Assembly (NCBI GenBank): GCA_025454395.1
Contig: JALOOM010000007.1
Span: 3,874-67,873 of the forward strand
Source of the DNA: Elainella sp. Prado103
GTDB taxonomy: Bacteria; Cyanobacteriota; Cyanobacteriia; Elainellales; Elainellaceae
DNA length: 64,000 bases
Direction: 5' to 3'
Shown here one piece after another: positions 8,901 to 48,217 of this stretch. Position numbers and translations under genes: made by a program. Within the stretch, counting starts at the first letter, position 1; each line of letters starts with the position of its first letter. A model generated the notes under the pieces. It had not been told where the DNA came from. It did not search any database and was given only the letters and a program-made list of their open reading frames with translations.

Positions 8901-9391
8901 TTGTCATGATCAGTAGCCTGAAACCAATTGTCACAAAACGGGGCGATCGGATGGCCGTGTTGCAAATTGAGGATCTAACGGGTCAGGCAGATGCAGTTGT
9001 ATTCCCCAAAATTTTTGAACGGATCGGGCATTATTTGCAAGTCGATCAGCGCTTGATGGTGTGGGGCAAGTCCGATCGACGGGACGATCGCAGCCAGTTT
9101 ATCATTGAGGATGCTGAACCGATCGAGTCGGTACGAATGGTGATGGTGGAGCTAGATGCCACAACCGCAGGCGATATTACTAAACAGCATTATCTGCGCA
9201 CCGTTTTATTGGAGCAGCGGGGAGAAGATGATAGCGGCAAGGTTCCGGTGATTGCTGTTGTGTCTGGCCTAGAGCGCCGAGAAATCGTGCGTTTAGGGGC
9301 ACAGTTTCGGGTTCAAGACCATCAAGCGGCAGTATCGGCTTTACTGCGGGCGGGCTTTCAAGCCAGAGCTTCTTCACTCTTAGCCAGTTGA
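5903..9391 (+). CDS. dnaE: DNA polymerase III alpha subunit, contiguous with no intein
   Basis: PHP domain [44 protein letters not shown] fold. ATG at 5903 (ORF track starts at TTG 5891). Confidence 0.98.
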
Positions 9392-9436
9392 GTCGGGGAA
9401 GGAAGTCTCCTACCAGTTAATTGGCGTTGCTGAATG

Positions 9437-9787
9437 TTAGACCGTAACGCTAGGAGCATTAGATTGCAGATCCAAAAGCTGTTCTAGGAGATTCTCAATA
9501 GGAGTACAAAGCACCTCCGATGTAGGGGTAGTAGATAGTGCTGTTGGCCAAACATTCAGCAAACAAAACAACTGTTTGCCAACCTTTAAATCGTCACCGA
9601 AACCTGACCAGTTGCAACTACTCATTACAACAAGAAACATCTTTGCATCTGGAAAGACCTCCTTCAGCTTCTGTTCTCGGTTCTCAAAGTCAGACTTCCA
9701 GTTGTGTCGGCTCCACCCAAGCTGCGTTTTGCATTCAACGACAGCCAATAATTCAGAGCCACTCCAGATACTAATATCAGGGCGCAC
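9437..9787 (-). pseudogene. PD-(D/E)xK-type nuclease-like ORF, probably a 5'-truncated fragment
   Basis: RPDISIW...AVVECKTQLGW matches PD-x(10-12)-E-x-K. The motif begins at residue 2, with an in-frame TAA directly before the GTG. No CGATCG in the segment. Lies beside the tRNA-Ser 3' end. Confidence 0.55.
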
Positions 9788-34700: not shown

Positions 34701-36632
34701 GTGTCTTACTCTGAGTTGCCGGATGAGTTACCCGATCGCCCTCCCTTGCCCGATCGGTTTGATGTGTTAATTATTGGTGGGGGAGCGGCTGGACTCTATA
34801 CAGCGCTCTGTTTGCCCTCTCATCTCCAAGTGGGACTAATTACCAAAGATCGGCTGTCTCTCTCTGCCAGTGATTGGGCGCAGGGCGGCATTGCGGCTGC
34901 AATTTCAACCGATGATTCCCCCCAATTGCATTTGCAGGACACTTTAAAAGCAGGAGCAGGGTTATGTGAGCCATCGGCCGTTTCCCTATTGGTGGAAAAG
35001 GCTGCTGACTGTGTCCATAAGCTTGTAGAAATGGGAGTTGCCTTCGATCGCGATCGGCAGACCACGCAGCTAGCACTGACCCTAGAAGCGGCTCATTCTC
35101 GTCGTCGCGTCCTTCATGCGGCTGATACCACCGGGCGGGCGATGGTGACGACTTTAATGGCTCAAGTGCTCGATCGCCCCAATATTCAAGTCTTGCAGGC
35201 ATTTGTGCTGGATCTGGTCATGCAATCTCATCCAGATCCACCCAATCTAGACCCACCCAATCTAGACCCACCCAATCCAGCTTCTTTCCCTCATTGTCAG
35301 GGTGTCGTGATGGTGTATGGCGATCAGTTAGTGCGAGTGGCGGCTGGGGCGGTAATTCTAGCCACCGGCGGCGGCGGACAGGTTTATGCCCAAACGACGA
35401 ATCCTGAGCTGAGTACGGGCGATGGGGTGGCGATGGCCTGGCGATCGGGCGCAGAAGTGCGTGATTTAGAATTTGTCCAGTTTCATCCGACCGCTCTCAC
35501 CCAGCCTGGGGCTCCCCGGTTTCTCATCAGCGAGGCGGTGCGGGGAGAAGGGGCGCATTTAGTTGATCAGACAGGCCGACGCTTTGCATTTGATTACCAT
35601 CCAGCCGGTGAGTTAGCTCCCCGCGATGTTGTGAGCCGAGCCATTTTCAACCACTTGCAGCAAACGAGTGCCGATCCCACCACAGCCCATGTTTGGCTGG
35701 ATTTGCGATCGATCGATCCAGACACGGTGCGCCACCGCTTTCCCAACATCATTCAGGTCTGTAAACAATGGGGCATTGATCTGTTTCAACAACCGATCCC
35801 AGTTGCGCCTGCAGCCCATTACTGGATGGGAGGCATCACGACCGATCGCGAGAGCCGCACGACTTTACCAGGGCTGTATGCGGTGGGGGAAACCGCCAGT
35901 ACGGGGGTACATGGTGCCAATCGGCTAGCCAGCAACTCCCTGCTGGAATGTCTGGTGTTTGGGGCTCAACTGGCGGCGATCGAGGTGAAGCCGCCTGGAT
36001 CTGGTGAAGCCGCAACTCATCCAGATGCAGAGTCGAAGTCAATGAACCTCTTAGATGAGGTGATTCAAGCCAATCTCCCAGTCAATCTCCCAGTCAATCT
36101 CCCAGTCAATCTCCCAGTCAATCTCCCAGTCAATCTTGCGCCCCTATCCCCTGAATTGACAGACATCCGGCAGGCTCTACCGCGATTAATGTGGCAAAGT
36201 GCTGGAATTTGTCGAGAAGCGGCCAGTTTAGCGGCTGCGATCAATCAAGTGGAGCAATGGCGACAGATTTTTGCTGCCGATCCGCTCAGCCAGTTTGTGA
36301 TGCAGGCGATCCAGCAGCTTCAAGGAGAACCATCTGGCGAGGTAACAGCGGGCGATCGATCCTCGGATGCTTCGGGTCGTCGTTCTGCCAGCCCCACCTA
36401 TCCGCCGATCCCACTCAACCCGCCCGGCATGGCTCTCACCCTACGCCAATGGAGTGAACTCCGCAATTTACTAGATATTGCTGGTTTAATGCTTAAAAGT
36501 GCTGCATTCCGAACTGAAAGTCGCGGCGGACATTATCGCGCCGATTATCCTGAGATCGATCCCCAATGGCAGTCCCATACGGTAATTGTGGGTGAAACCA
36601 TCACCCGATCCGCCCAGATCGCCCCAGCATGA
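34701..36632 (+). CDS. nadB: L-aspartate oxidase with repeat insertions
   Basis: IIGGGAAG, SDWAQGGIAAA, LEAAHSRRRVLH, EFVQFHPT, GVHGANRLASNSLLECLVFG, ESRGGHYR. Confidence 0.96.
   Translation: MSYSELPDELPDRPPLPDRFDVLIIGGGAAGLYTALCLPSHLQVGLITKDRLSLSASDWAQGGIAAAISTDDSPQLHLQDTLKAGAGLCEPSAVSLLVEKAADCVHKLVEMGVAFDRDRQTTQLALTLEAAHSRRRVLHAADTTGRAMVTTLMAQVLDRPNIQVLQAFVLDLVMQSHPDPPNLDPPNLDPPNPASFPHCQGVVMVYGDQLVRVAAGAVILATGGGGQVYAQTTNPELSTGDGVAMAWRSGAEVRDLEFVQFHPTALTQPGAPRFLISEAVRGEGAHLVDQTGRRFAFDYHPAGELAPRDVVSRAIFNHLQQTSADPTTAHVWLDLRSIDPDTVRHRFPNIIQVCKQWGIDLFQQPIPVAPAAHYWMGGITTDRESRTTLPGLYAVGETASTGVHGANRLASNSLLECLVFGAQLAAIEVKPPGSGEAATHPDAESKSMNLLDEVIQANLPVNLPVNLPVNLPVNLPVNLAPLSPELTDIRQALPRLMWQSAGICREAASLAAAINQVEQWRQIFAADPLSQFVMQAIQQLQGEPSGEVTAGDRSSDASGRRSASPTYPPIPLNPPGMALTLRQWSELRNLLDIAGLMLKSAAFRTESRGGHYRADYPEIDPQWQSHTVIVGETITRSAQIAPA
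36071..36136 (+). repeat. Five perfect 12-bp repeats CAATCTCCCAGT inside nadB (NLPV x5)
   Basis: Read directly; in frame. Confidence 0.95.
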
Positions 36633-37469: not shown

Positions 37470-38657
37470 TTACAGGGCTGCTGAGTTCGGAAGCGGCACG
37501 ACCGGCAGACTAGGAAGCGGGCTAGCTTCTGGAAGGGGCACTGGGATAGGCGCAGAGCTAGAGTCTGGTAGGGGTGAGGTTGCAGCCGGTGGAATTGCAG
37601 CCGGTGAGACAGTCGCCGGTGAGACACTCGCCGGTGAGACACTCGCCGGTGAGACAGTCGCCGGTGGAATTGCAGCCGGTGAGACAGTCGCCGGTGAGAC
37701 AGTCGCCGGTGAGACAGTGGCAGCGCAAGATTCTGTTCCGGGCGACTGAGTTGTAATTTGAATCTGTGGATAACCAGCGGTACTCAATAACTGGCTGACC
37801 ACGAGTTGGGCCCGATCGGTCGCCGATTGCAGGATGCCATCATTGCAGGCAGTCTGGACAATTTTAGCTAAGGTTTCTTGCTGCGCTAAAACTTGCAATT
37901 CTGGAGCAACATCGGGCCCCAGCCCCAAAAAGCCCCGATCGTAGTCATACACCTTCGATCGATTCACATCTATTTTGCTGTCTAGAATTTTGGCTGGAGG
38001 CAGTACCAGAGCAATTTGATCGCCATTTACCTGGATGTTTTGAGGCTGAAGGGTAGACAAATCCACCCCAGCACGCACTTCACCATGGGCGATGTAAAGT
38101 AACGTAGTTTTGCCGATCACATAGCTGCCCAAGGTACGCTCTCGGCTAGTCGGCACCACCGATTCCATACTGTAAACCGCAGTGGTTAATTCGCTGGCTC
38201 CGCGCACTTGCTGCACCACGATCGATCGAATATCAACTTGTGCCGGTGCGGTCGTGAGGGTTAAAGCTTGACGCAAGTGATGCAACAGTTGCCCGCCTGA
38301 TTGCCACATGCCGATCAGCCCAAAAGCGATGATGAACAACACGCCACCCGTCGTCATCAACGATAGATTCTTGCACCAAAGCTGCCAACCTGGGGTAGGT
38401 CGAGGCGGATGTGTCCAAGATGCACGATCGGCAGAATGGGCATATCCGGCAGAATGGGCATAACGATCGGACGGTGAAGTCGCAGCGGTGGTTGAAGGGT
38501 GTAATTCTCTAGGCAATTCCCCGGACAATTCCCGATCGGTTACAAAGCCGACCGTGGGTGGGTTGAAGGGTTGTGGGCGTTGGGTGGGGTTGGCGGGAAA
38601 AGCAACAGGAGCTGAGGCATGGGGCTGGGAGGGTGGCTGGTGAGGGCGATCGGGCAT
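37470..38657 (-). CDS. DUF4230 family protein with a Pro-rich N-terminus and ATVSP-repeat tail
   Basis: Single TM helix, ELTTAVYSMESVVP, GEVRAGVDLS, LPPAKILDSKID. Confidence 0.85.
   Translation of the reverse strand: MPDRPHQPPSQPHASAPVAFPANPTQRPQPFNPPTVGFVTDRELSGELPRELHPSTTAATSPSDRYAHSAGYAHSADRASWTHPPRPTPGWQLWCKNLSLMTTGGVLFIIAFGLIGMWQSGGQLLHHLRQALTLTTAPAQVDIRSIVVQQVRGASELTTAVYSMESVVPTSRERTLGSYVIGKTTLLYIAHGEVRAGVDLSTLQPQNIQVNGDQIALVLPPAKILDSKIDVNRSKVYDYDRGFLGLGPDVAPELQVLAQQETLAKIVQTACNDGILQSATDRAQLVVSQLLSTAGYPQIQITTQSPGTESCAATVSPATVSPATVSPAAIPPATVSPASVSPASVSPATVSPAAIPPAATSPLPDSSSAPIPVPLPEASPLPSLPVVPLPNSAAL
37581..37717 (-). repeat. About 9 copies of a 15-bp unit encoding ATVSP/ASVSP/AAIPP
   Basis: gccggtgagacagtc and variants, read directly. 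Confidence 0.9.
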
Positions 38658-39005
38658 GATCTTCGCTTTCCTGATGGTGGTGTGGAGGGCAGTTCTGAGG
38701 GTAATTGCGATCGAACGGGTTCTGCGCTAAACCTCTTCAGATTCTACCGAGATGATATTTTTTGCTGGTAAAAGTAATTTAGCAAAGTTGATGCTAGCGA
38801 TAAATAATCTGTAAGGCGAGATGAAATTTTTGAGACATCCTGAAATTGGTGGTCAAACCTGGCTTTGAGGCATTAATTTTTTAAAATTAACCATGAATGG
38901 ATGATGCCCAGCTTTCAGAAAACATACCTGGGCAGACCGGGATCGCTGTAAGATAACTTCAAGATACCTTCAAGAATTTGTTGCAAACTTTTGGTTGGGT
39001 TCAAC

Positions 39006-39371
39006 ATGCTGCTCAAATCCACAACTCGCCACATCCGCATTTTCACTGCCGATCTGCAAGCTGATCAATTGGTGCCTGCTGAGGACAAATTGACCCTTGA
39101 TGTCGATCCTGATAATGAGTTGCTTTGGAACGATGCCGCCTTGCAACAGGTCTATCGCAAGTTTGATGAACTGGTTGCCAGCTATGCTGGGGCCGATTTA
39201 ACCGATTACAATCTGCGGCGGATTGGTTCTGACCTAGAACATTTTGTCCGCTCCCTATTGCAGTCAGGACAGATTGCTTACAACTTAGCCAGTCGAGTCC
39301 GGAACTACAGTTTGGGCTTGCCGCGTCTGGCTGATGAGGGCAATGACAGTGATCATCTCGTGATTCGGTAG
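39006..39371 (+). CDS. ndhM: NDH-1 subunit M
   Basis: [42 protein letters not shown]; start at ATG 39006. Confidence 0.95.
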
Positions 39372-39565: not shown

Positions 39566-41992
39566 ATGCCCCATTCCGTAACTCTTTACTGCCCTAACCC
39601 GACTTGCCAAGCAGCGAATGCGGAAGACCATCACTTCTGCCAGAAATGCTCCACAGTGCTGCCCCACCATTATCTCTGGGCGATCGGTTCCGGGAGTTTC
39701 GCTGCCAAATTGGGTGATCGGGTGGGCGATCGATATGTCTGTAAGCAACCCAATGTCTTTCTGGATACGAAGCCTGGTCTCTTATCCAACACCTACCGGG
39801 AACTTCCTCAGCGTTATTTACCCTATTTGCGCTTGGTTCCCTATCAGCTCCATTTGCCCCAGGTTTACGATTGGGTGCAATTGGAAGCCGATCGAGCAGA
39901 TTTATTATTGTTGGATCGAGTTCCTCTTATCTCAGGGGGCGATCGAGTTACATCCCTAGCTCCAGCCCAGACTGCCAGCTCAATGCAACTATTGCCAACT
40001 TTGGCTGAGCAATGGCAGCAGGTATCTCCCCTGCGGCAGCTCAACTGGCTGTGGCAAATCGCCAATCTGTGGCAGCCCCTCAGTAGTGAACAGGTGGCGG
40101 GTAGTCTGCTCGATCCAGCCTTAGTGCGGGTTGAAGGATCGTTAATCCGATTACTGAAGTTGCGTCTCTTGGAAGCTCCTCCCCTCACGGATTTAGGGCA
40201 GTTATGGTTACAGTGGTCTGAAACGGCCCATCCAGAAGTCCGGCCGTTTATAGAGCAACTGAGCCAGAAGCTGATTGCCGGAGAAATTCCCAATGGGGAA
40301 GTATTAGTAAGCTATTTAGATGCGGGATTGGCTGAACTCAGCCAGTGCCAAACTCGCCAGCTTGAATTGATTACGCTCACCGATCAGGGGCCGACTCGCC
40401 AGCGCAATGAAGATGCTTGTTACCCTGTGAGTGGCACCCAGACGACCGCAACCCATCCAGCCCTATTGATCGTCTGTGATGGGATTGGGGGGCATCAAGG
40501 GGGCGATGTGGCCTCTCATTTGGCAATCACCACCTTAGAACAACGGGTGAAAGCACTTGATCTCGATCGGTTTGATCCAATCCATTTATCGATCGAGCTG
40601 GAAAAGGCTGCCTGTGAAGCGAATGATCAGATTAGCCAACGGAATGATCAAGAACACCGATTTGAACGGCAACGTATGGGTACAACCCTGGTGATGGCTC
40701 TCGTGCGTCATCATGAACTTTATGTTACCCATGTCGGCGATAGTCGCGCCTATTGGATTACCTCACGCGGTTGTCATCAACTCACTTTAGACGATGATGT
40801 GGCTTCTCGAGAAGTGCGGTTGGGCTACAGTTTTTATCGTCAAGCCCTGCATCAACCCAGTGCAGGATCGTTGGTGCAGGCTCTGGGGATGGGAGACTCC
40901 TCGATGCTGTATCCCACTGTCCAACGGTTGATTCCCGATGAAGAGGGATTGCTGCTGCTCTGCTCCGATGGGTTGAGTGACAACGATCGGATTGAGGAGA
41001 GCTGGGAGGCTGAAATTTTGCCGTTGCTCAGTCGGCAGGCTGATTTGGCAACGGTGAGTCAGCGCTTGGTGGAGATTGGTAATACCCGCAATGGCTATGA
41101 CAATGTGACGGTGGGGTTGATTCACTATCGGGTGGCAATCACTCATCCAGTACCAACCTTATCGCAACTACCCGAAACTTTACCATTCAGTTTATCCACA
41201 CAGCCGACGGTGAAAACGCAACCGAGTTGGGGACAAACAGATCAGTGGACTACCGAAAATACTCAGTTTGACGATCGAGAAACCGCAGATACAACTCTGG
41301 TGGCTCCACTGCAATCAGACTCATCTCCGACCCAGACCCGGCACTCGGCCAGCTCTATCAGGCGACAATGGAATCTTACCCCGCTTTGGCTAGGCATTGG
41401 GTTATTGATGGCGATCGGAGCAGGTGTCGGGGCGCTTTTGTCAGTGCTGCGGGAAGATCATTCTGGAGCTGATCCCACTCCTTTACCGGCTTCACCTGTA
41501 CCAACCCTCGAAAGTCAGCAACCGAATCTCGCCATGCCTCTCAGTTCGCTAGAGGTAGGCATGTTGGTACAACTGACTCAATCACCCGATGGGAATGAAC
41601 CCCTGCTGCTGGATCGTCCGGGCAATTGGGGAGCGACGACCGCAGAACCTCTGGCAGAACCTGTCAATCAGCCTGAGCCGCAACCGTTAGGTCGCATTCC
41701 GAGGAGTGCAGTTCTGGAGGTGCTACGGAAGCAAAGTTTGATCCAGCAAGAGCGTTGGGTAGAGTTAAGGGTTTGTACGGTGACTACCACTACATCCTCT
41801 GCGTCGCCCAGTGGTCTAACCAGTAGCCCAACCAGTAGCCCAACCAGTAGCCCAACTGAGCCGATCGAGCCTGAACCCTTGCTGTCCCCTCTCCAAACAG
41901 GGCAGACCGGCTGGATCGAGGAAAGGCTGATCTTGCCCTTGCTGACTCCCTACTCAGACGGCTCAACCGCACAGCCATCTGCCTGTCGCTAA
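39566..41992 (+). CDS. Membrane-anchored PP2C Ser/Thr phosphatase with an N-terminal Cys4 zinc ribbon (PrpJ-like)
   Basis: CPNPTC..FCQKC; PP2C motifs NEDA, VCDGIGGH, GTT, HVGDSRAY, CSDGLSD, DNVTV; TM helix LWLGIGLLMAIGAGVGALL. Confidence 0.9.
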   Translation: MPHSVTLYCPNPTCQAANAEDHHFCQKCSTVLPHHYLWAIGSGSFAAKLGDRVGDRYVCKQPNVFLDTKPGLLSNTYRELPQRYLPYLRLVPYQLHLPQVYDWVQLEADRADLLLLDRVPLISGGDRVTSLAPAQTASSMQLLPTLAEQWQQVSPLRQLNWLWQIANLWQPLSSEQVAGSLLDPALVRVEGSLIRLLKLRLLEAPPLTDLGQLWLQWSETAHPEVRPFIEQLSQKLIAGEIPNGEVLVSYLDAGLAELSQCQTRQLELITLTDQGPTRQRNEDACYPVSGTQTTATHPALLIVCDGIGGHQGGDVASHLAITTLEQRVKALDLDRFDPIHLSIELEKAACEANDQISQRNDQEHRFERQRMGTTLVMALVRHHELYVTHVGDSRAYWITSRGCHQLTLDDDVASREVRLGYSFYRQALHQPSAGSLVQALGMGDSSMLYPTVQRLIPDEEGLLLLCSDGLSDNDRIEESWEAEILPLLSRQADLATVSQRLVEIGNTRNGYDNVTVGLIHYRVAITHPVPTLSQLPETLPFSLSTQPTVKTQPSWGQTDQWTTENTQFDDRETADTTLVAPLQSDSSPTQTRHSASSIRRQWNLTPLWLGIGLLMAIGAGVGALLSVLREDHSGADPTPLPASPVPTLESQQPNLAMPLSSLEVGMLVQLTQSPDGNEPLLLDRPGNWGATTAEPLAEPVNQPEPQPLGRIPRSAVLEVLRKQSLIQQERWVELRVCTVTTTTSSASPSGLTSSPTSSPTSSPTEPIEPEPLLSPLQTGQTGWIEERLILPLLTPYSDGSTAQPSACR

Positions 41993-42366
41993 GCGCAAAT
42001 TAGAAACAACTCGATCGGCAGCGCGGCAGTTTTGCCGGAGTTAGGCTAGCAACTCTGATCATGCCTGGATTGGAGGAGTTTGATCCGTAGAGTTGACCGA
42101 TCCATCCCCATCGCAGTACAGTCAGTTCTATTCAAGGCGGCTGTCTGAACCCAGGTTTTCGATAACCGATCGTCTGCGTTTACTCGCGTAGCAGACCGGA
42201 TAGACTGATATAGGACTGTTGATATTGAAGACGAGAATGGGGTAGCCCTAGGTCATCTGGATCATAGAGTGTAACTCATCTAGTTGAGGTTGCCGCCAGA
42301 TTTGACTGCTCGCGTCGATCGAGTGATTTTCTTTGTAGCTTCTGCGTTTGTCTGAATTCCTGTCGA

Positions 42367-44022
42367 ATGCCTGATCATCCTTGCCTCAGATTGGCAATTT
42401 CTCGCCTCGCGGAGCTGGAGCCGCGACACTATGCTATTTGGGTGTGGCAGGCTCCTTATCCAGGTGGTTATGTGCATCATAACTGCCAGTGGACAGAAAC
42501 CTTAACGGAGGCTTGGCACGCCTGGCAAAACTTCTTTCCGGTGCGGGGTCTGCCGCCTGTGCCCTTTGTTTCTTCTGCGTTTATTCCATCTCCGCCGTTG
42601 GACTTGAATGGAGATACTGCCAATCCGGCTGGGCAGCCCACCAATTACACCGGACGGGTGATGCAACAATTGGGGGTGACTCTCTGGCAATGGCTATTTG
42701 ACGGGCCCATCCAAAGCAGTTACAACCGTAGCCTGGGCATTGCGATCGGTCAACGGCAAGCTTTGCGGTTGCGCTTGGAAGTGCGCGATCCCGATTTAAT
42801 CATGCTGCCCTGGGAGATCATGCAAACTGAATCAGGCACCCAGGCCATTTCCCTTAGCAAGCAAATTTTGTTCAGCCGCACCACCAGTGATGTTGATTCT
42901 CTGCCGCCCCAACGCACCGAACAGGTTTTGAGAATTCTGCTGGTTTTGGGACACAATCCAGAAGCGCCGCCAGTGGGCAGTTCTGAGCAGGGTGGACAAC
43001 GCTTAGCCCTGGAGCAAGAAGCAGAGTCCTTGGCTCAATTATTGGAGAGCGCTGGTGCCACCGACTATCGGAGTACCGCCCCCGCTATCTGTCAGGTGAC
43101 TACCTTAATCGAACCCAGCAAAACTGAGTTAACCAACTTGTTGGAAACCGGGGCCTATAACGTCCTGTTTTATTCTGGGCATGGGGCTCCTGCTGCCGAC
43201 GGTGGCTTACTATTTTTGCGAGCCGATGCGGAAATTAACGGGACTGAACTGGCTCAGATCCTGGTGCGAATGCAAGTCAAACTCGCCGTGTTCAATGCCT
43301 GCTGGGGTGCCCAGCCCGATCATCGCGATGGCCAAGCGATTCCGCGCAGTAGCTTGGCGGAGGTGTTAATCCATCACGGAGTACCTGCTGTGTTGGGAAT
43401 GCGCGATTCTATTACCGATGAAGAGGCGCTCAGTTTTATCAAAAAATTTACGCAGCAGTTGGCCCGCCGATCGCCCATTGATGAAGCAGTAGCGATTGCC
43501 CGCCAAGACTTACTGTTGTTGTATCGGTTTAATCAACCGGCTTGGACACTGCCTGTCCTTTATATGCACCCCGAATTTGATGGCGAGCTGATCCGCCCTT
43601 ATACAGAAGGTGTGACTGAAATTCCCGATCAGTCAGCCAGTTGGTTAGGTCGTCACATGCCCCAGGCTTATCTGCGCTCTCTCGTGGCTCCCCCTAAAAT
43701 TTGGTCCCTGCGAGGGGGGATCATGCGGGTTGGACGGGGTGAAGGCAACGATGTGGTGTTACAACAGCCAGAAGTATCGCGAGAACATGCCGAAATTTTA
43801 TTTCAAGATGCGGCGGGTGCAACCTCGATCGAGGAAAGCGAGCCGACCTATCTGTTGCGCGATAAGTCGCGTTGTGGCACCTGGGTTTGCAATCCAGCCA
43901 ATTCAGAAGGGTGGATCTTGGTTCGTAATCGGGAAGTGCCGCTCCCTTCAAAAACCCAATTGCGGTTCGGTAATCCTCGCGGACAAGCCTTGGAGTTTGT
44001 GATCGGATCGCCGCCCATCTAG
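42367..44022 (+). CDS. CHAT (caspase/HetF-like) protease with a C-terminal FHA domain
   Basis: LPWEIM, FYSGHG, VFNACWG, W.LPVLY; FHA motifs GRGEGNDVVL..PEVSREHA and DKSRCGTWV. Confidence 0.9.
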   Translation: MPDHPCLRLAISRLAELEPRHYAIWVWQAPYPGGYVHHNCQWTETLTEAWHAWQNFFPVRGLPPVPFVSSAFIPSPPLDLNGDTANPAGQPTNYTGRVMQQLGVTLWQWLFDGPIQSSYNRSLGIAIGQRQALRLRLEVRDPDLIMLPWEIMQTESGTQAISLSKQILFSRTTSDVDSLPPQRTEQVLRILLVLGHNPEAPPVGSSEQGGQRLALEQEAESLAQLLESAGATDYRSTAPAICQVTTLIEPSKTELTNLLETGAYNVLFYSGHGAPAADGGLLFLRADAEINGTELAQILVRMQVKLAVFNACWGAQPDHRDGQAIPRSSLAEVLIHHGVPAVLGMRDSITDEEALSFIKKFTQQLARRSPIDEAVAIARQDLLLLYRFNQPAWTLPVLYMHPEFDGELIRPYTEGVTEIPDQSASWLGRHMPQAYLRSLVAPPKIWSLRGGIMRVGRGEGNDVVLQQPEVSREHAEILFQDAAGATSIEESEPTYLLRDKSRCGTWVCNPANSEGWILVRNREVPLPSKTQLRFGNPRGQALEFVIGSPPI

Positions 44023-44151
44023 TTGCCTAAATTCTCTGGCTCTATCGATCGAGCTAGCCAGATCGGTAGAAATTATCCGTGGAAATTACCAATTGATGGG
44101 AAATCTATCGTTTACAATTCGGAACGAGGCAAAGTTCAGGTGTAGTGACTC

Positions 44152-44850
44152 ATGTCAAGCAATTCACAGGATGAGAATCCTTCGCCAGAGTTTTTGGAGC
44201 ATACCATGACCCACAATCCGAACCCCGCTGTGCTGTTTCCAACCCGAGCCCATGCTGAGCTGGAACTGCTGCAAATGCTTTTACAAGAAGAGGCAGACTC
44301 TCTCGATACATCAGTTGCTTATCCTTGGAATCCGGCAGAAGCAGAAAGCTACTTTGAGGTGTTGGAACAGGCGGTTTTGCAAGCGGGTTGGACAGAAGCA
44401 GAATTTACCGAGCCTGGACAGGCAATTTCGAATCTATTAAATCAAGCTTGGGCTGAGGCTACCTTGCCGGTTTCATCGGTTTCAACGGCGATGCTGAGTT
44501 TGCTTCAGCAGTTTGCCTCCCGGTTTGATGCCCAAGTGCCTCAACAAGTCTTAAGTTCAATTGCCCAGCAAGCTCAGCAGTTGATGAGCGAAAATCGTTC
44601 GATCGCCGATCGAATGGTGGATTGTGTGCGCGACTGTTTTCCCGCTTGGGCAGAAGAAGATTTGCAAGTTTTGGCTCGTCCCTTTGCCTTTGCCATGCGG
44701 AGTGCAGAAACGGAAGTCTTGGAAGCCGCGCTTCGCTCTATGCGTTGTGCCGCCTGGAGTGATCTGTCCGGTGTAGAACAGGCTCGTCTGAGTTTGGCGA
44801 TCGCTCGCTATGCGATTGATCACGCTGCCAGTGATCCTCATGAAGTCTAG
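44152..44850 (+). CDS. Conserved cyanobacterial hypothetical protein, possibly PatU3-like
   Basis: YPWNP, DCFPAWAEEDLQVLARPFAFAMRS, WSDLSGVEQARLSLAIARYA; alternative start at 44206. Confidence 0.8.
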   Translation: MSSNSQDENPSPEFLEHTMTHNPNPAVLFPTRAHAELELLQMLLQEEADSLDTSVAYPWNPAEAESYFEVLEQAVLQAGWTEAEFTEPGQAISNLLNQAWAEATLPVSSVSTAMLSLLQQFASRFDAQVPQQVLSSIAQQAQQLMSENRSIADRMVDCVRDCFPAWAEEDLQVLARPFAFAMRSAETEVLEAALRSMRCAAWSDLSGVEQARLSLAIARYAIDHAASDPHEV

Positions 44851-44914
44851 TGAATTACGGCCAGTCTGATTTCTTGCCAGTCTAATTTCTTGCCTGTTCA
44901 ACTTGCGGGAAAGC

Positions 44915-46273
44915 CTAGCGAAACCCAGTAAACCGAGTTGCGAAATTCTGCGATCGAGTCGGAGATAAAGCCCGGGCCTTGAGGATCGCTGCCGTCAAAA
45001 AAGCGTAAGAGATAACCCCCACCACTGCCAATACGAGTAAATTAATCAGCCCCATCGTATTCCAGAGGGCATGGAGTCCTGAAGCAGTTAAGTAGCCCAC
45101 CCCCAAAATCTGCCAGCGCTTGGTGGGTTTGAGAATACTCAACCCAATGAAGTAGCCTAAATAGCCGCTGTAAGCCATGTGACCGGAAATAGAACCCAGG
45201 ATGCGCGGAATGAGGAGCTGTAGCCCCAGTAGCTCTCGATACCCCACTCCCGCCTGAAACGTCACATCATTCATAATTCCGGGTACATATTGCCCCAAAG
45301 TTTCGAGCAAAGTGAAGCCAACCGCCGAAGCAGTGCCCAGTAAGATGCCATCTAGGGGTTCCCAAACTCCAATTTTTTCTCGGGCAGGCGATCGAAGCCG
45401 TGTGCCGATCCAGTAAACCAGCAATATGGGAATCGCCTTCAGCAACTCTTCCATGAGCCCCGCCCCAAAAAACATTTGGATCAACGTGATCACAAATCCT
45501 TCTGAGCCATCTTCAGGAATGTTGCCGGGCAAAATGCCGCGAAACACCAGGACAAATAATCGCAGCACAGGGCTCAGCAGCAGCAGCATTGTGGTAATGC
45601 CGGTACCCACCAGTAGCCACCAAGGCTTTTGTTTGCCACAGAGCTGATAGACAAAATAATAAGCAATGCCTGCAATATAAGCTGCCAGGAGCACATTAAA
45701 AAATCCTGGATTGCCGATCGACAGAAACAGCAGCACCACAAAAGATACGGTGATGATGCCTGGAATCAAATAGGCTTTACGGGTGAGATCACGCCCCGTG
45801 GAGAGGATGGGGAACAATTGGCTGAGGGTGACCCCATCGCTCGGTATGGCTTCTCGCGGGTAAGCAGCGGCGATCGGTTCTGGTTCAGTCGGTAAAGGCA
45901 GGGCAGAAGGATGGGTCGGAATGGAATTGCGCAGCTCAAACACAAATTGCGGCCCAGTTTGAGATAGCAAAATTTGATCGCCAGCCCGGAGATGCCGACA
46001 CCCTTTAATCCGCTGACCATTCACATAGGTGCCATTGGCACTATCGAGATCGCAAATTTGCCAGCCTGAGGTGGAATGAGGCGCGACGCTAATTCGCACA
46101 TGCTGTCGGGAAACAGCTCCATAAAGCTGGGAGTCAAGCACAATCTGGCAACGCGGATCCCGGCCAATCACCACGGTTGCTGGGGCAATCAGTGGATAAG
46201 TGACCAGGGATGACTCCTTGGGATGAGTAGTGATCCGCCGTAGAAACGCAGAACAGGAAGATGAACTGTTCAT
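44915..46273 (-). CDS. FHA domain plus PrsW-family intramembrane metalloprotease
   Basis: IGRDP..VSRQH..DLDSANGTYVNG (FHA); GLMEELLK, GFTLLET, GHMAYSG, LHALWN (PrsW). Confidence 0.9.
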   Translation of the reverse strand: MNSSSSCSAFLRRITTHPKESSLVTYPLIAPATVVIGRDPRCQIVLDSQLYGAVSRQHVRISVAPHSTSGWQICDLDSANGTYVNGQRIKGCRHLRAGDQILLSQTGPQFVFELRNSIPTHPSALPLPTEPEPIAAAYPREAIPSDGVTLSQLFPILSTGRDLTRKAYLIPGIITVSFVVLLFLSIGNPGFFNVLLAAYIAGIAYYFVYQLCGKQKPWWLLVGTGITTMLLLLSPVLRLFVLVFRGILPGNIPEDGSEGFVITLIQMFFGAGLMEELLKAIPILLVYWIGTRLRSPAREKIGVWEPLDGILLGTASAVGFTLLETLGQYVPGIMNDVTFQAGVGYRELLGLQLLIPRILGSISGHMAYSGYLGYFIGLSILKPTKRWQILGVGYLTASGLHALWNTMGLINLLVLAVVGVISYAFLTAAILKARALSPTRSQNFATRFTGFR

Positions 46274-46737: not shown

Positions 46738-47964
46738 CTAATCTACAAGACAGTCCTCAAGCTGTTGCTTCAACGTCGGGTGATCGAGGTTTTGACCAAT
46801 TAGCACAAGCTGGATCTTAGGCTCGCCCTTCCAGGCTTCATCATCCAACGAGAATCGTTTGCCACTGAGATGGAAAATGTGGCGTTTGGGGCTTTCCTCA
46901 AACCAGAGGATTCCCTTTGCTCGGAAGATATTTTCTGGTAATTGGTGATCGAGAAAATTCTGGAATTTCCGAATGGCAAAGGGCCGATCGCTCTGAAATG
47001 ATAGGGATGTGAAGCCATCCATCTCCAGGTGATTGGAATGATGGGCATGATCGTGATGCTCATGGCTATGATGCTCGTGATCATGATGATCGTGATCATG
47101 ATGGGCATGGCTGTGATGCTCATGGCTATGATGCTCATGGCTATGATGCTCATGGCTATGATGCTCGTGATCATGATGCTCATGATCGCAATGCCCATGC
47201 TCATGATCGCAAGCAGAATGATCGTGATGATCGTGATCATGATGATCGTGATCATGATGATCGTGCTCCGGTTCAATCAACCGATCCGGATTGAAGTATT
47301 GATCCGACTCGAATAACCCCACACTGAGAATGAGCGGTAATGCCACCTGGGACTTGGCAGTGCGCAGAATGCGAGCCCCTTCCTTGATTTCACGGATTTT
47401 GCCCTCTAATCGATCGATCTCAGCTTCCTGCACCAGATCGGTCTTGTTGAGCAAAATAATATCGCCATAGAGAATTTGATTGTAGGCAGCCTGGCTATTG
47501 AAGAGATCAAGGCTGTAGTTTTCCGAATCTACCAGGGTCACGATCGAGTCAAGCCGAGTCATATCACGCAGCTCCGTACCCAAAAAGGTGAGAGCGATCG
47601 GTAGAGGATCGGCCAGCCCTGTGGTTTCAACGACCAGATAGTCAATCCGATCTTGACGCTCCAACACTCGATAAACGGCATCGACGAGATCATTGTTGAT
47701 GGTGCAGCAGATACAGCCGTTACTCAGTTCAACCATCGTGTCATCTGAGCCTTCCACCGTCACCAGCAGCTCATTGTCGATCCCCACTTCTCCAAACTCA
47801 TTCACCAACACGGCCGTCTTCAGACCTTCCTGGTTGGTCAGAATATGATTGAGCAGGGTGGTTTTGCCACTGCCCAAAAAGCCAGTGATAATCGTGACCG
47901 GCAGCCCATGCTTAGCATCATCCATGCGGGTTGCAGTTGCGGCGGAAGGAACGGTTGAAGTCAT
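46738..47964 (-). CDS. COG0523/CobW-family G3E GTPase, putative Zn metallochaperone with a His-rich insert
   Basis: GFLGSGKTT, NEFG, GCICC (CxCC), ETTGLADP, NKTD, C-terminal CobW_C domain; likely start at ATG 47964. Confidence 0.93.
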   Translation of the reverse strand: MTSTVPSAATATRMDDAKHGLPVTIITGFLGSGKTTLLNHILTNQEGLKTAVLVNEFGEVGIDNELLVTVEGSDDTMVELSNGCICCTINNDLVDAVYRVLERQDRIDYLVVETTGLADPLPIALTFLGTELRDMTRLDSIVTLVDSENYSLDLFNSQAAYNQILYGDIILLNKTDLVQEAEIDRLEGKIREIKEGARILRTAKSQVALPLILSVGLFESDQYFNPDRLIEPEHDHHDHDHHDHDHHDHSACDHEHGHCDHEHHDHEHHSHEHHSHEHHSHEHHSHAHHDHDHHDHEHHSHEHHDHAHHSNHLEMDGFTSLSFQSDRPFAIRKFQNFLDHQLPENIFRAKGILWFEESPKRHIFHLSGKRFSLDDEAWKGEPKIQLVLIGQNLDHPTLKQQLEDCLVD

Positions 47965-48217
47965 AGCTTTGCCTGGATAGATCTGCAATGTAATGTAAGG
48001 TCAAAAATGCAAGGCCCAAACATATGGGGTCAGTTAGAAACTACTGGAATTGCTTGGGGCACAGCAGGCTGAGACTGTCCAGCATACTGAATTTCGTCAG
48101 CTCTTTAATTTTCATTCCTCAGAAGCGCAATATTGCATCGAACCAAAAGTCAATTACAACAAGCAGCATTCATCATACCTTCATTATCACCGATCCCTTC
48201 CAGGGAGGAAAAGAAAA

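What the first reader, a model, noticed from the sequence alone, without database searches (positions are those of the whole stretch)
39566..46273. Candidate phospho-gated proteolysis module: PP2C, CHAT-FHA, PatU3-like and convergent FHA-PrsW
Seen: three co-directional genes and a convergent fourth encode a membrane PP2C phosphatase, a caspase-fold protease with an FHA domain, a conserved small protein, and an intramembrane metalloprotease with a second FHA domain. Established: FHA domains bind phosphothreonine and PP2C removes it. In Anabaena the CHAT protease HetF cleaves PatU3 to couple division and differentiation, and I recall the PP2C PrpJ lying beside a HetF-like gene there. Inference: this is a self-contained switch in which pThr marks recruit two different proteases and the phosphatase resets it. 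It may be a morphogenetic or division pathway parallel to HetF-PatU3. No Ser/Thr kinase is in the window, so the writer would be elsewhere.
Basis: partly seen in the sequence, partly recalled or inferred. Interest (0 to 1): 0.78.

Follow-up and report, generated by a model that had tools for sequence, protein, structure and literature searches.

The report
HetF/PatU3-like protease pair with phospho-readers
This cyanobacterial gene cluster holds a sister copy of the known HetF protease and, right beside it, a sister copy of HetF's substrate PatU3, flanked by a membrane phosphatase and a second protease that each carry or serve phosphothreonine readers, so it looks like a second, phosphorylation-controlled version of a proteolytic switch that governs cell division and differentiation in filamentous cyanobacteria.

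Summary
The four genes and all domain calls are real. Every catalytic motif is intact.

The cluster is the orthologue of Anabaena PCC 7120 alr1728-all1729-all1730-all1731(prpJ1). I confirmed this because the two published FurA boxes of alr1728 lie exactly 205 and 531 nt upstream of the FHA-PrsW gene there.

The firm core is the CHAT-FHA protease and the small protein downstream of it:
- CHAT-FHA's closest paralogue is HetF.
- In 401 cyanobacterial genomes the two genes co-occur in 199, occur alone in 6, and are both absent in 196.
- They lie within 6 kb in 108 of 124 placed cases.

The small protein is a real PatU/PatU3 paralogue. hhalign gives score 43.4 and E 1.9e-5, against a maximum of 26.8 in 300 shuffles. 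Its invariant Arg165 aligns with the Arg where HetF cuts PatU3, and sits in a modelled exposed loop.

The two outer genes are looser. The PP2C is usually adjacent (82/109) but its family is far more widespread. FHA-PrsW is often adjacent (66/104) but phyletically separable.

Most likely this is a protease-substrate pair gated by phosphothreonine. That is inferred, not shown. I rate it a new variant of a known kind, interest about 0.66.

The parts
39566..41992 (+). Membrane PP2C phosphatase, orthologue by synteny of Anabaena PrpJ1 (All1731). Layout: 4-Cys zinc ribbon (res 9-28), conserved alpha/beta N-terminal domain (res ~35-260), PP2C domain (272-525), disordered Thr/Ser-rich linker (526-603), TM helix (604-629), extracytoplasmic beta-rich domain with conserved Cys737/Cys807.
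   Evidence: domains; motifs, TM; alignment A4; AF2 model, pLDDT 74.5; best structural match is M. tuberculosis PstP, 2cm1, E 5.8e-16; orthology with all1731.
41141..41374 (+). Cytoplasmic juxtamembrane linker of the PP2C. Most orthologues carry a conserved K-T-Q-x-[L/V] motif about 20 residues before the TM helix. The window protein has KTQ at 550 and PTQ at 588. It is a candidate pThr docking site for FHA domains (inference).
   Evidence: the Thr column at window Thr589 is nearly invariant; pLDDT below 50, predicted disordered.
42367..44022 (+). CHAT-FHA protease, the closest paralogue of HetF. Layout: conserved N-terminal region (1-100), CHAT caspase-fold domain (101-~410) with His272/Cys312, linker with invariant Thr417-x-x-Pro420, and an atypical FHA (446-540).
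   Evidence: own-genome HetF-like ORF is the best paralogue: 38% identity, E 1.9e-41; other CHAT proteins reach E 3e-8 at best; family 55-92% identical, dyad invariant.
43180..43302 (+). Codons of the catalytic dyad: His272 (43180-43182) and Cys312 (43300-43302).
   Evidence: The corresponding Cys295 of HetF is essential (PMC9457339).
44206..44850 (+). PatU3 paralogue ('p232', 214 aa from Met19; the longest ORF starts at 44152). It is all-helical. Motifs: YPWNP (39-43), VPQ (111-113), EDLQVLARPxAxAMR[S/G] (151-166), LSxxEQARLSLAIARYA (187-203). It is the predicted substrate or partner of the CHAT-FHA protease.
   Evidence: 586 homologues, all 'hypothetical'; single copy in 201/401 genomes; alignment A2; homology to PatU; AF2 model, pLDDT 80.5; no PDB neighbour.
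44698..44700 (+). Codon of invariant Arg165. It aligns with PatU3 Arg117, the residue after which HetF cuts PatU3, and is the predicted cleavage site (M-R|S-A-E-T against Y-R|S-P-E-T).
   Evidence: alignments; loop 164-168 between helices 150-163 and 169-179; PMC9457339: cleavage mapped after R117.
44915..46273 (-). FHA-PrsW intramembrane glutamic protease, orthologue of the Anabaena Fox gene alr1728. It has a canonical FHA (res 34-103; GR37-38, SRQH55-58, NGT80-82), then a multi-pass PrsW domain (216-429; EELLK275, H365, HALWN401). It converges on the PatU3 paralogue with 64 bp between the stop codons.
   Evidence: distribution and adjacency; identity with alr1728; PMC4005646: Fox gene, FurA-activated.
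38991..39371 (+). ndhM (NDH-1 subunit M), a conserved upstream neighbour of the PP2C gene. It is context, not a proposed part of the module, and it warns that synteny here is partly ancestral.

Best explanation
The window carries the copy, in an Elainella-like filamentous cyanobacterium, of a chromosomal cluster conserved across about half of sampled cyanobacterial genomes. It is orthologous to Anabaena PCC 7120 alr1728 / all1729 / all1730 / all1731 (prpJ1).

Core. The core is a duplicated HetF-PatU3 system. The CHAT-FHA protein is the sister of the divisome protease HetF. The small protein encoded directly downstream is a shortened paralogue of HetF's substrate PatU3.

Most likely mechanism (inferred):
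- The CHAT domain (Cys312/His272) cuts the small protein after its invariant Arg165, in an exposed inter-helix loop. This destroys or converts a regulator, as HetF does with PatU3.
- Where HetF is anchored by a TM segment and periplasmic TPRs, this protease carries a C-terminal FHA domain instead. Its activity or location would therefore depend on a phosphothreonine mark.
- Candidate marks are its own invariant linker Thr417 and the conserved K-T-Q-x-L motif in the juxtamembrane linker of the neighbouring PP2C.
- The membrane PP2C (PrpJ1 type) has an extracytoplasmic domain and a conserved N-terminal domain. It would erase the mark, which is written by a Hanks kinase encoded elsewhere.
- The convergent FHA-PrsW protease is a second pThr reader at the membrane. 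It often travels with the cluster but is evolutionarily separable. It probably acts in the same envelope or division signalling network, not as an obligate part.

Shown: gene content, intact active sites, orthology to the prpJ1/alr1728 locus, co-occurrence and adjacency statistics, homology of the small protein to PatU3 with the Arg aligned, and a loop position in a model.

Inferred: cleavage, pThr gating, the identity of the pThr sites, and the physiological role.
For: - Domains and motifs.
- Closest paralogue: HetF is by far the nearest. The own-genome HetF-like ORF scores E 1.9e-41, other CHAT proteins 3e-8 or worse. The HetF NCBIfam model hits at 1.5e-49.
- Co-occurrence of CHAT-FHA and the small protein in 401 genomes: 199 both, 4 and 2 alone, 196 neither.
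- Adjacency: 108/124 in the class sample; 74/78 among named loci.
- Whole array: ndhM>PP2C>CHAT-FHA>small protein><FHA-PrsW is kept in Nostocaceae (11/12) and several other families.
- PatU homology, profile search: the A2 HMM's only recurrent non-self hit in 5 of 8 genomes is PatU. That ORF is named PatU by NCBI, sits next to a HetZ-like ORF, and holds SSYRSPET.
- PatU homology, alignments: hhalign gives E 5e-5, then probability 77.7%, E 1.9e-5, score 43.4 over 99 columns with a broader PatU set. The reversed alignment scores 26.6, and 300 shuffles average about 15 with a maximum of 26.8.
- Cleavage Arg: BLASTP (E 8e-6) aligns M-R165-S-A-E-T with Y-R187-S-P-E-T. A relaxed alignment also lines up YPWNP with FPWE.
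- HetF cuts PatU3 after R117 within T-N-Y-R|S-P-E-T (PMC9457339).
- Model: Arg165 lies in a loop of a confident all-helical model.
- Both systems in one genome: the own genome also keeps a true PatU and a HetF-like gene, so the two systems coexist.
- Locus identity: the alr1728 FurA boxes lie at exactly 205 and 531 nt.
- Genetics: prpJ and alr1728 mutants are both Fox- (PMC6161253; PMC4005646). all1729 is among 10 genes found only in filamentous cyanobacteria, together with hetR, hetZ and patU3 (PMC2821919).
- PP2C fold: closest to membrane-anchored PstP of M. tuberculosis.
Against: - No cleavage, binding or phosphorylation has been observed.
- The profile-profile probability is 78%, not above 95%. 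The reciprocal PatU-profile genome search did not retrieve the small protein.
- The small protein has no conserved Thr, so it is probably not itself the FHA ligand.
- The FHA of the protease lacks the canonical Asn, and the GR Arg varies among members, so pThr binding is uncertain.
- Intergenic gaps are 195, 375 and about 184 bp. The promoter/terminator scans are at chance level, so co-transcription is not shown.
- ndhM is also a conserved neighbour, so part of the synteny may be inherited rather than selected for joint function.
- FHA-PrsW and the PP2C family have much wider or different distributions.
- One genome (G087) keeps the small protein, the PP2C and PrsW without the protease.
Confidence: 0.55

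Rival explanations
1. The small protein is not a substrate. It is a stoichiometric regulator, adaptor or pseudosubstrate inhibitor (securin-like) of the CHAT-FHA protease. The true substrate is another protein, for example a pThr-bearing membrane or divisome protein recruited through the FHA domain.
For: The co-occurrence and adjacency are very tight, which fits any obligate partner. HetF is described as separase-like, clan CD (PMC9457339), and separases have securin inhibitors. The small protein lacks a conserved Thr. G087 keeps it without the protease, which suggests it has a function of its own.
Against: It is homologous to a proven substrate (PatU3). The one residue known to define that substrate's cleavage site is invariant and aligned, and it is modelled in a loop.
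Confidence: 0.2
2. The four genes are an inherited syntenic block of independently acting genes. The PP2C (PrpJ1) and FHA-PrsW work in separate envelope or heterocyst pathways, and only the CHAT-FHA/PatU3-paralogue pair is functionally coupled.
For: ndhM, an unrelated respiratory gene, is conserved next to the PP2C just as often. FHA-PrsW is present in 86 genomes without the pair and absent from 50 with it. The PP2C family occurs in 325/401 genomes. Intergenic gaps are long and no operon signals were found.
Against: Adjacency of the PP2C (82/109) and PrsW (66/104) to the pair persists across distant families in a phylum with little conserved gene order. Both flanking proteins deal with pThr, as does the FHA on the protease. 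Mutants of prpJ and of alr1728 share a Fox- phenotype. Genomes with the pair show two PrpJ-like hits, and most genomes without it show one (only two candidates were scored per genome).
Confidence: 0.25
3. The cluster is an anti-phage or conflict system built on a CHAT protease effector, as in Craspase or CBASS-associated CHAT proteins.
For: CHAT proteases and FHA/PP2C modules do occur in conflict systems. There are marginal PADLOC domain-level hits (E about 7e-4).
Against: The genes are single-copy and vertically conserved at a fixed chromosomal place among housekeeping genes (nadB, cobO, ndhM, cysS). Base composition shows no anomaly. No defence-family match rises above noise. The orthologues have developmental phenotypes in Anabaena.
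Confidence: 0.03

Closest known systems
HetF-PatU3 proteolytic pathway of Anabaena sp. PCC 7120 (PMC9457339; PMC8406250)
   Same: The CHAT clan-CD protease has the same Cys/His dyad and is the closest paralogue of HetF. The partner protein is homologous to PatU3, with an invariant Arg aligned on the mapped cleavage Arg117. Both systems coexist in the same genomes and have largely overlapping phyletic distributions.
   Different: HetF is anchored by a TM segment and periplasmic TPRs, whereas this protease is soluble and ends in an FHA domain. hetF and patU3 are unlinked (patU3 sits with hetZ), whereas here protease and partner are adjacent in about 87% of genomes. The partner lacks PatU's C-terminal third. 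No activity has been demonstrated.
PrpJ1 (All1731) and the Fox gene alr1728 of Anabaena sp. PCC 7120
   Same: They are direct orthologues by synteny of the window's PP2C and FHA-PrsW genes. The PP2C is membrane-anchored, and mutants of both genes cannot fix N2 in air.
   Different: The window organism belongs to a non-Nostocalean lineage (closest named relative Elainella saxicola), so the ancestral role cannot be heterocyst-specific. In the papers I could search, these genes were studied singly and never as one module with all1730/all1729.
PstP / FhaA / FhaB(FipA) / PknA-PknB cell-division cluster of Mycobacterium tuberculosis
   Same: A membrane-anchored PP2C is encoded next to FHA-domain proteins. 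The PP2C fold is closest to PstP. The FHA of the PrsW protein best matches the FhaB/FipA model (NF049868, 1.5e-12). pThr sites lie in juxtamembrane linkers (my own knowledge of that system).
   Different: No kinase, RodA or PBP genes are in the cluster. Here the FHA domains are fused to proteases instead of being free adaptors. The resemblance is one of logic, not orthology.
PrsW site-1 protease of Bacillus subtilis (RsiW cleavage)
   Same: The Pfam PrsW domain scores above its cut-off, and the EExxK and HxxxN motifs are intact.
   Different: The NCBIfam PrsW equivalog scores 19 bits against a cut-off of 225. There is an N-terminal cytoplasmic FHA domain. No sigma/anti-sigma pair is nearby.

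Membership tests
HetF (NCBIfam NF045509, cell division protein HetF) | CHAT caspase-fold domain with a catalytic His/Cys dyad | tested here: met
   Pfam CHAT 2e-23. The HetF model matches positions 71-384 at 1.5e-49. His272 and Cys312 are invariant in 14 sequences.
HetF (NCBIfam NF045509, cell division protein HetF) | Full-length architecture (TM segment plus periplasmic TPR region) and a score above the equivalog cut-off of 1200 bits | tested here: not met
   It scores 169 bits. There is no TM-like segment and the C-terminus is an FHA domain. A separate HetF-like ORF of 963 aa exists on contig C47. The window gene is therefore a paralogue, not HetF.
PatU / PatU3 | Sequence homology to the PatU core | tested here: met
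   hhalign gives probability 77.7%, E 1.9e-5, score 43.4, against a shuffle maximum of 26.8. PatU is the recurrent HMM hit in 5 of 8 genomes. BLASTP gives E 8e-6.
PatU / PatU3 | Arg at the HetF cleavage site (R117 of PatU3) followed by a small residue | tested here: met
   Arg165 is invariant in 32 sequences, is followed by Ser or Gly, and aligns with PatU R187 (= PatU3 R117).
PatU / PatU3 | Full PatU length including the C-terminal domain, and a position next to hetZ | tested here: not met
   The alignment ends at about PatU residue 245 of 328. The window protein has 214 aa. It sits next to CHAT-FHA, not hetZ. The true PatU orthologue is elsewhere in the genome (G000:C134).
PatU / PatU3 | Cleaved by a HetF-type protease; inhibits division or differentiation | not testable with these tools
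   Needs biochemistry and genetics.
PPM/PP2C phosphatase, PrpJ1 (All1731) orthologue | Metal-binding PP2C motifs and a C-terminal membrane anchor | tested here: met
   NED281, DGIGGH305, GDSR391, SDGLSD467 and DNVT512 are present, with a TM helix at 604-629. The fold is closest to PstP and tPphA.
PPM/PP2C phosphatase, PrpJ1 (All1731) orthologue | Orthology with all1731 by conserved position | tested here: met
   The same gene order occurs in the PCC 7120-type chromosome. alr1728 is identified by its published FurA boxes at exactly 205 and 531 nt, and no other genes are called in between.
FHA domain (PF00498), pThr reader | Canonical pThr-binding residues (GR, SxxH, NG[T/S]) | tested here: met
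   In the FHA of the PrsW protein, GR37-38, SRQH55-58 and NGT80-82 are all present. Pfam 1.2e-16.
FHA domain (PF00498), pThr reader | The same residues in the FHA of the CHAT protein | tested here: inconclusive
   G456-R457 and S471-x-x-H474 are present in the window protein. The Asn position is Cys here and varies across the family, and the GR Arg is Ser or Lys in some members.
PrsW intramembrane protease (PF13367) | Domain score above the Pfam cut-off, with EExxK and HxxxN motifs | tested here: met
   It scores 122 bits against a cut-off of 23.5. EELLK275 and HALWN401 are present.
PrsW intramembrane protease (PF13367) | Equivalog of B. subtilis PrsW (NF033739) | tested here: not met
   It scores 19 bits against a cut-off of 225.
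Known anti-phage defence systems (PADLOC-DB) | Match to a defence-system protein model | tested here: not met
   There are only two marginal domain-level hits, at E about 7e-4.

The most novel reading that the evidence does not exclude
A second HetF/PatU3-type proteolytic switch exists in nearly all filamentous cyanobacteria and is gated by phosphothreonine. In this reading a membrane sensor phosphatase (PrpJ1 type) sets the pThr state of a juxtamembrane or linker Thr. The FHA domain of the HetF-sister protease reads that state, and the protease then removes the PatU3 paralogue by a cut after Arg165. This would control septum or envelope remodelling and filament integrity. The small protein (All1729) was singled out in 2010 as one of ten filament-specific genes, so this would give a mechanism to a candidate determinant of cyanobacterial multicellularity. 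It would also explain why prpJ1 and alr1728 mutants fail in heterocyst envelope maturation.
Probability: 0.3. Interest if true: 0.8.

Novelty: new variant of a known kind. Interest (0 to 1): 0.66.

Why it matters
HetF-PatU3 is the only CHAT protease-substrate pair defined in cyanobacteria, and it couples cell division to differentiation. This work shows that a sister protease sits next to a sister of that substrate, with the cleavage Arg conserved, in about half of sampled cyanobacterial genomes.

- It gives an immediately testable substrate for an uncharacterised, highly conserved protease family (55-92% identity across families).
- It links three scattered genetic observations in Anabaena into one locus: prpJ1, alr1728 and the 'filament-specific' all1729.
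- It suggests how Ser/Thr phosphorylation could control regulated proteolysis in bacterial multicellular development.
- It gives a first family assignment to a 'hypothetical' protein family of several hundred members (586 database homologues).

Tried and rejected
- (1) A back-translated DNA pattern for the PatU3 cleavage peptide in five Nostocaceae genomes gave one chance hit next to another PP2C paralogue, not patU3. PatU was then found through the profile of the small protein.
- (2) I tried to map PCC 7120 locus tags from GenBank accession offsets and abandoned it. PatU3 (alr0101) is BAB77625, so the offsets are not constant. I used the FurA-box test instead. The same boxes are absent from a more distant Nostoc locus.
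- (3) The reciprocal genome search with a Nostocales-only PatU profile did not retrieve the small protein.
- (4) The N-terminal domain of the PP2C (res 35-260) matched only a zinc ribbon in Pfam, in a single-sequence PDB search and in an HMM-versus-PDB search. Foldseek on the full-length model returned only PP2C folds. A 'pseudokinase' fold therefore stays untested; only the order of secondary-structure elements is compatible with it.
- (5) Foldseek of the small-protein model against the PDB found nothing (best E 1.2).
- (6) Promoter and terminator scans were at chance level.
- (8) The J. Bacteriol. papers on PrpJ1/2 and on the ten Fox genes are not held. Their content is cited only through papers that quote them.
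- (9) The defence-system reading was rejected (and the genomic context).

Full report
**What is there.** Listing ORFs confirms four genes at the stated coordinates. Three are co-directional: 39566-41992, 42367-44022 and 44152-44850. The fourth, 44915-46273, is convergent.
- Pfam and NCBIfam give a PP2C phosphatase (PF00481/PF13672; Stp1-type 2.1e-46) with a weak N-terminal 4-Cys prefix.
- The second gene is a CHAT protease (2e-23) with a C-terminal FHA (2.5e-9). Its CHAT part matches the HetF equivalog model at 1.5e-49 but far below that model's cut-off.
- The third gene encodes a 232-aa protein with no family.
- The fourth is an FHA (1.2e-16) fused to a PrsW intramembrane protease (2.6e-35).
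- A motif check shows every catalytic signature intact, one TM helix in the PP2C (604-629), several in PrsW, and none in the other two.
- No Hanks kinase catalytic-loop motif occurs anywhere in the window.
- The flanks are housekeeping genes (nadB, cobO, DUF4230, ndhM; a CobW/ZigA-like GTPase and cysS), and base composition is flat.
- Homologues of the 232-aa ORF begin at its Met19, so the gene is probably 44206-44850 (214 aa). I number it from there.

**Whose genome, and what is the locus elsewhere.**
- The window is contig C57 of a 5.8-Mb cyanobacterial assembly. The closest named relative is Elainella saxicola.
- At least 573 species genomes encode a CHAT-FHA relative.
- Among the 80 best named loci, the small protein follows CHAT-FHA on the same strand in 74 of 78 with room. 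The PP2C precedes it in 50 of 68. FHA-PrsW converges in 32 of 68. ndhM lies upstream in 32.
- I fetched 40 further regions from other families. The whole array ndhM>PP2C>CHAT-FHA>small protein><FHA-PrsW is kept in 11 of 12 genomes of one family, which proved to be Nostocaceae, and in several other families.
- In Trichormus variabilis and PCC 7120-type chromosomes the order and orientation are the same.
- To tie this to published locus tags, I searched the PCC 7120-type locus for the two FurA boxes published for the alr1728 promoter (PMC4005646). Both occur once, exactly, ending 205 and 531 nt upstream of the FHA-PrsW start. Those are the published distances.
- So alr1728 is FHA-PrsW. With no other called genes in between, all1729 is the small protein, all1730 is CHAT-FHA and all1731 (prpJ/prpJ1) is the PP2C.
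- The literature then says three things. prpJ mutants are Fox- and lack the major heterocyst glycolipid (PMC6161253). alr1728 is a Fox gene activated by FurA. all1729 is one of ten 'core' genes found only in filamentous cyanobacteria, with hetR, hetZ and patU3 (PMC2821919).
- In the papers I could search, nothing treats the four genes as one unit or mentions all1730.

**Are the four genes co-conserved?** I searched the same 401 genomes of the class with each protein and compared the tables.
- CHAT-FHA orthologues (E<1e-90) occur in 203 genomes and the single-copy small protein in 201.
- Both are present in 199. The protease alone occurs in 4, two of them incomplete assemblies (73% and 88%) and a third with the gene at a contig end. 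The small protein alone occurs in 2. Neither is present in 196.
- Where both are placed, they lie within 6 kb in 108 of 124 genomes.
- FHA-PrsW occurs in 237 genomes. Of these, 151 also have the pair, and 86 lack it (whole families of smaller genomes). Another 50 genomes have the pair without PrsW (37 of them in one family). When both are present, PrsW is within 6 kb of the small protein in 66 of 104.
- The PrpJ-like PP2C family is in 325 of 401 genomes. The best hit is within 6 kb of CHAT-FHA in 82 of 109. Genomes with the pair show two hits and most others show one, but only two candidates were scored per genome.
- The counts are not corrected for phylogeny.
- My reading is that the protease and the small protein form an obligate pair. 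The PP2C is a frequent, probably functional neighbour. FHA-PrsW is a frequent but separable associate.
- ndhM is just as often conserved upstream. This warns that some of the synteny is simply old.

**What is the small protein?**
- An alignment of 32 diverse members (A2) shows the motifs YPWNP, VPQ, EDLQVLARPxAxAMR[S/G] and LSxxEQARLSLAIARYA. The invariant residues are P112, D152, R158, P159, A161, R165, W184 and L187. There is no conserved Thr.
- An HMM of A2 run over eight whole genomes finds, besides the family itself, only one recurrent weak hit (E 0.04-0.3 in five genomes), an ORF of about 330 aa.
- That ORF lies next to a HetZ-like ORF and contains FPWE and SSYRSPET. NCBI names it PatU, and its 258-aa split form is PatU3.
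- HetF cuts PatU3 after Arg117 in T-N-Y-R|S-P-E-T (PMC9457339).
- Profile-profile comparison gives E 5e-5.
- With 25 PatU sequences, including non-Nostocalean ones taken from genomes, it gives probability 77.7%, E 1.9e-5 and score 43.4 over 99 columns.
- Controls: the reversed PatU alignment scores 26.6. 150 column shuffles give mean 14.6, sd 2.9, maximum 25.1. 150 block shuffles give a maximum of 26.8.
- Both BLASTP (E 8e-6 for the single comparison) and the broader hhalign place the invariant Arg165 of the small protein on the cleavage Arg of PatU (M-R-S-A-E-T against Y-R-S-P-E-T).
- With relaxed alignment settings the N-terminal YPWNP also lines up with PatU's FPWE, though with low posterior confidence.
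- The family lacks PatU's C-terminal third.
- An AlphaFold2 model (pLDDT 80.5) is all-helical and puts Arg165 in the loop 164-168 between two confident helices. It has no PDB neighbour.
- The genome also has a true PatU and a HetF-like gene.
- In 65 chosen genomes, PatU is present in 20 of 24 that have the small protein. It is present in 5 of 41 that lack it, and those five are genomes whose only CHAT hit is a weak, presumably HetF-like one (E 1e-33 to 1e-45).
- The 'PatU3-like' label is therefore supported: this is a paralogous protease/partner pair.

**The phospho parts.**
- The FHA on PrsW is canonical (GR, SRQH, NGT) and best resembles FhaB/FipA.
- The FHA on the protease keeps G456-R457 and S471/H474. 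It has Cys in place of the canonical Asn, that position varies in the family, and the GR Arg is not universal. pThr binding is plausible for it but not assured.
- The only invariant Thr in the protease linker is Thr417, in V-T-E-I-P.
- The PP2C orthologues share a 4-Cys ribbon and a well-conserved alpha/beta domain (res 35-260). Its fold I could not assign.
- They also share a PstP-like catalytic domain and a disordered Thr-rich linker, with a conserved K-T-Q-x-[L/V] about 20 residues before the TM helix. Beyond the helix is an outer domain with two conserved Cys.
- These two Thr sites are my candidates for FHA ligands. This is inference only.

**How it most likely works, and rivals.**
- I commit, at about 0.55, to a phospho-gated HetF/PatU3-type switch. 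The CHAT-FHA protease cuts the adjacent PatU3 paralogue after Arg165. Its FHA ties this to a pThr mark that the membrane PP2C removes. FHA-PrsW is a second membrane pThr reader in the same network. The kinase is encoded elsewhere.
- Rival 1: the small protein is a regulator or pseudosubstrate rather than a substrate (0.2).
- Rival 2: only the pair is coupled, and the rest is inherited synteny (0.25).
- Rival 3: it is a defence system (0.03). This is rejected by the genomic context, the vertical conservation and PADLOC.
- Earlier notes of this scan on other genomes had reached a similar picture of the cluster. One note on this genome had guessed the PatU3 relation from memory. I treated these as leads and re-derived each point.

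**Limits.**
- The promoter scans are uninformative.
- Two key older papers are not held.
- No multimer modelling was possible.
- The co-occurrence counts are uncorrected for shared ancestry.

Noticed in passing
L123 (G087:C16:46800-66700), about 8855-9651: One genome of another family keeps ndhM-PP2C, then about 800 bp with no CHAT-FHA, then the PatU3 paralogue and FHA-PrsW. The protease has been lost naturally while its partner is retained.
   Followed up: partly
G384:C173:20268-21557: In this genome of the same family, the FHA-PrsW orthologue reads with nine in-frame stops and is apparently a pseudogene. CHAT-FHA and the small protein are still present.
   Followed up: no
window 46738-47988 (-): This CobW/ZigA-like metallochaperone GTPase carries a His-rich insert of about 90 aa (HDH/HEH repeats) between its GTPase and C-terminal domains.
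   Followed up: no
window 34701-36632 (+) and 37470-38657 (-): The nadB ORF carries short tandem peptide repeats (DPPNL x3, NLPV x5). The DUF4230 protein ends in ATVSP/SVSP repeats.
   Followed up: no
L161 8880-9990 (PCC 7120-type chromosome CP183817.1): A DDE_3 IS transposase lies directly upstream of the alr1728 promoter region, about 100 bp beyond the distal FurA box.
   Followed up: no
L137 1663-2964 (-) (G400:C1): This is a second membrane-anchored PrpJ-like PP2C paralogue in a Nostocaceae genome. It turned up by chance in a pattern search and may be the PrpJ2 type.
   Followed up: no
G000:C47:24861-27371 (-) and G000:C134:215349-216131 (-): The window's own genome also encodes a HetF-like protein (963-aa ORF) and a true PatU orthologue at unlinked sites.
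   Followed up: partly
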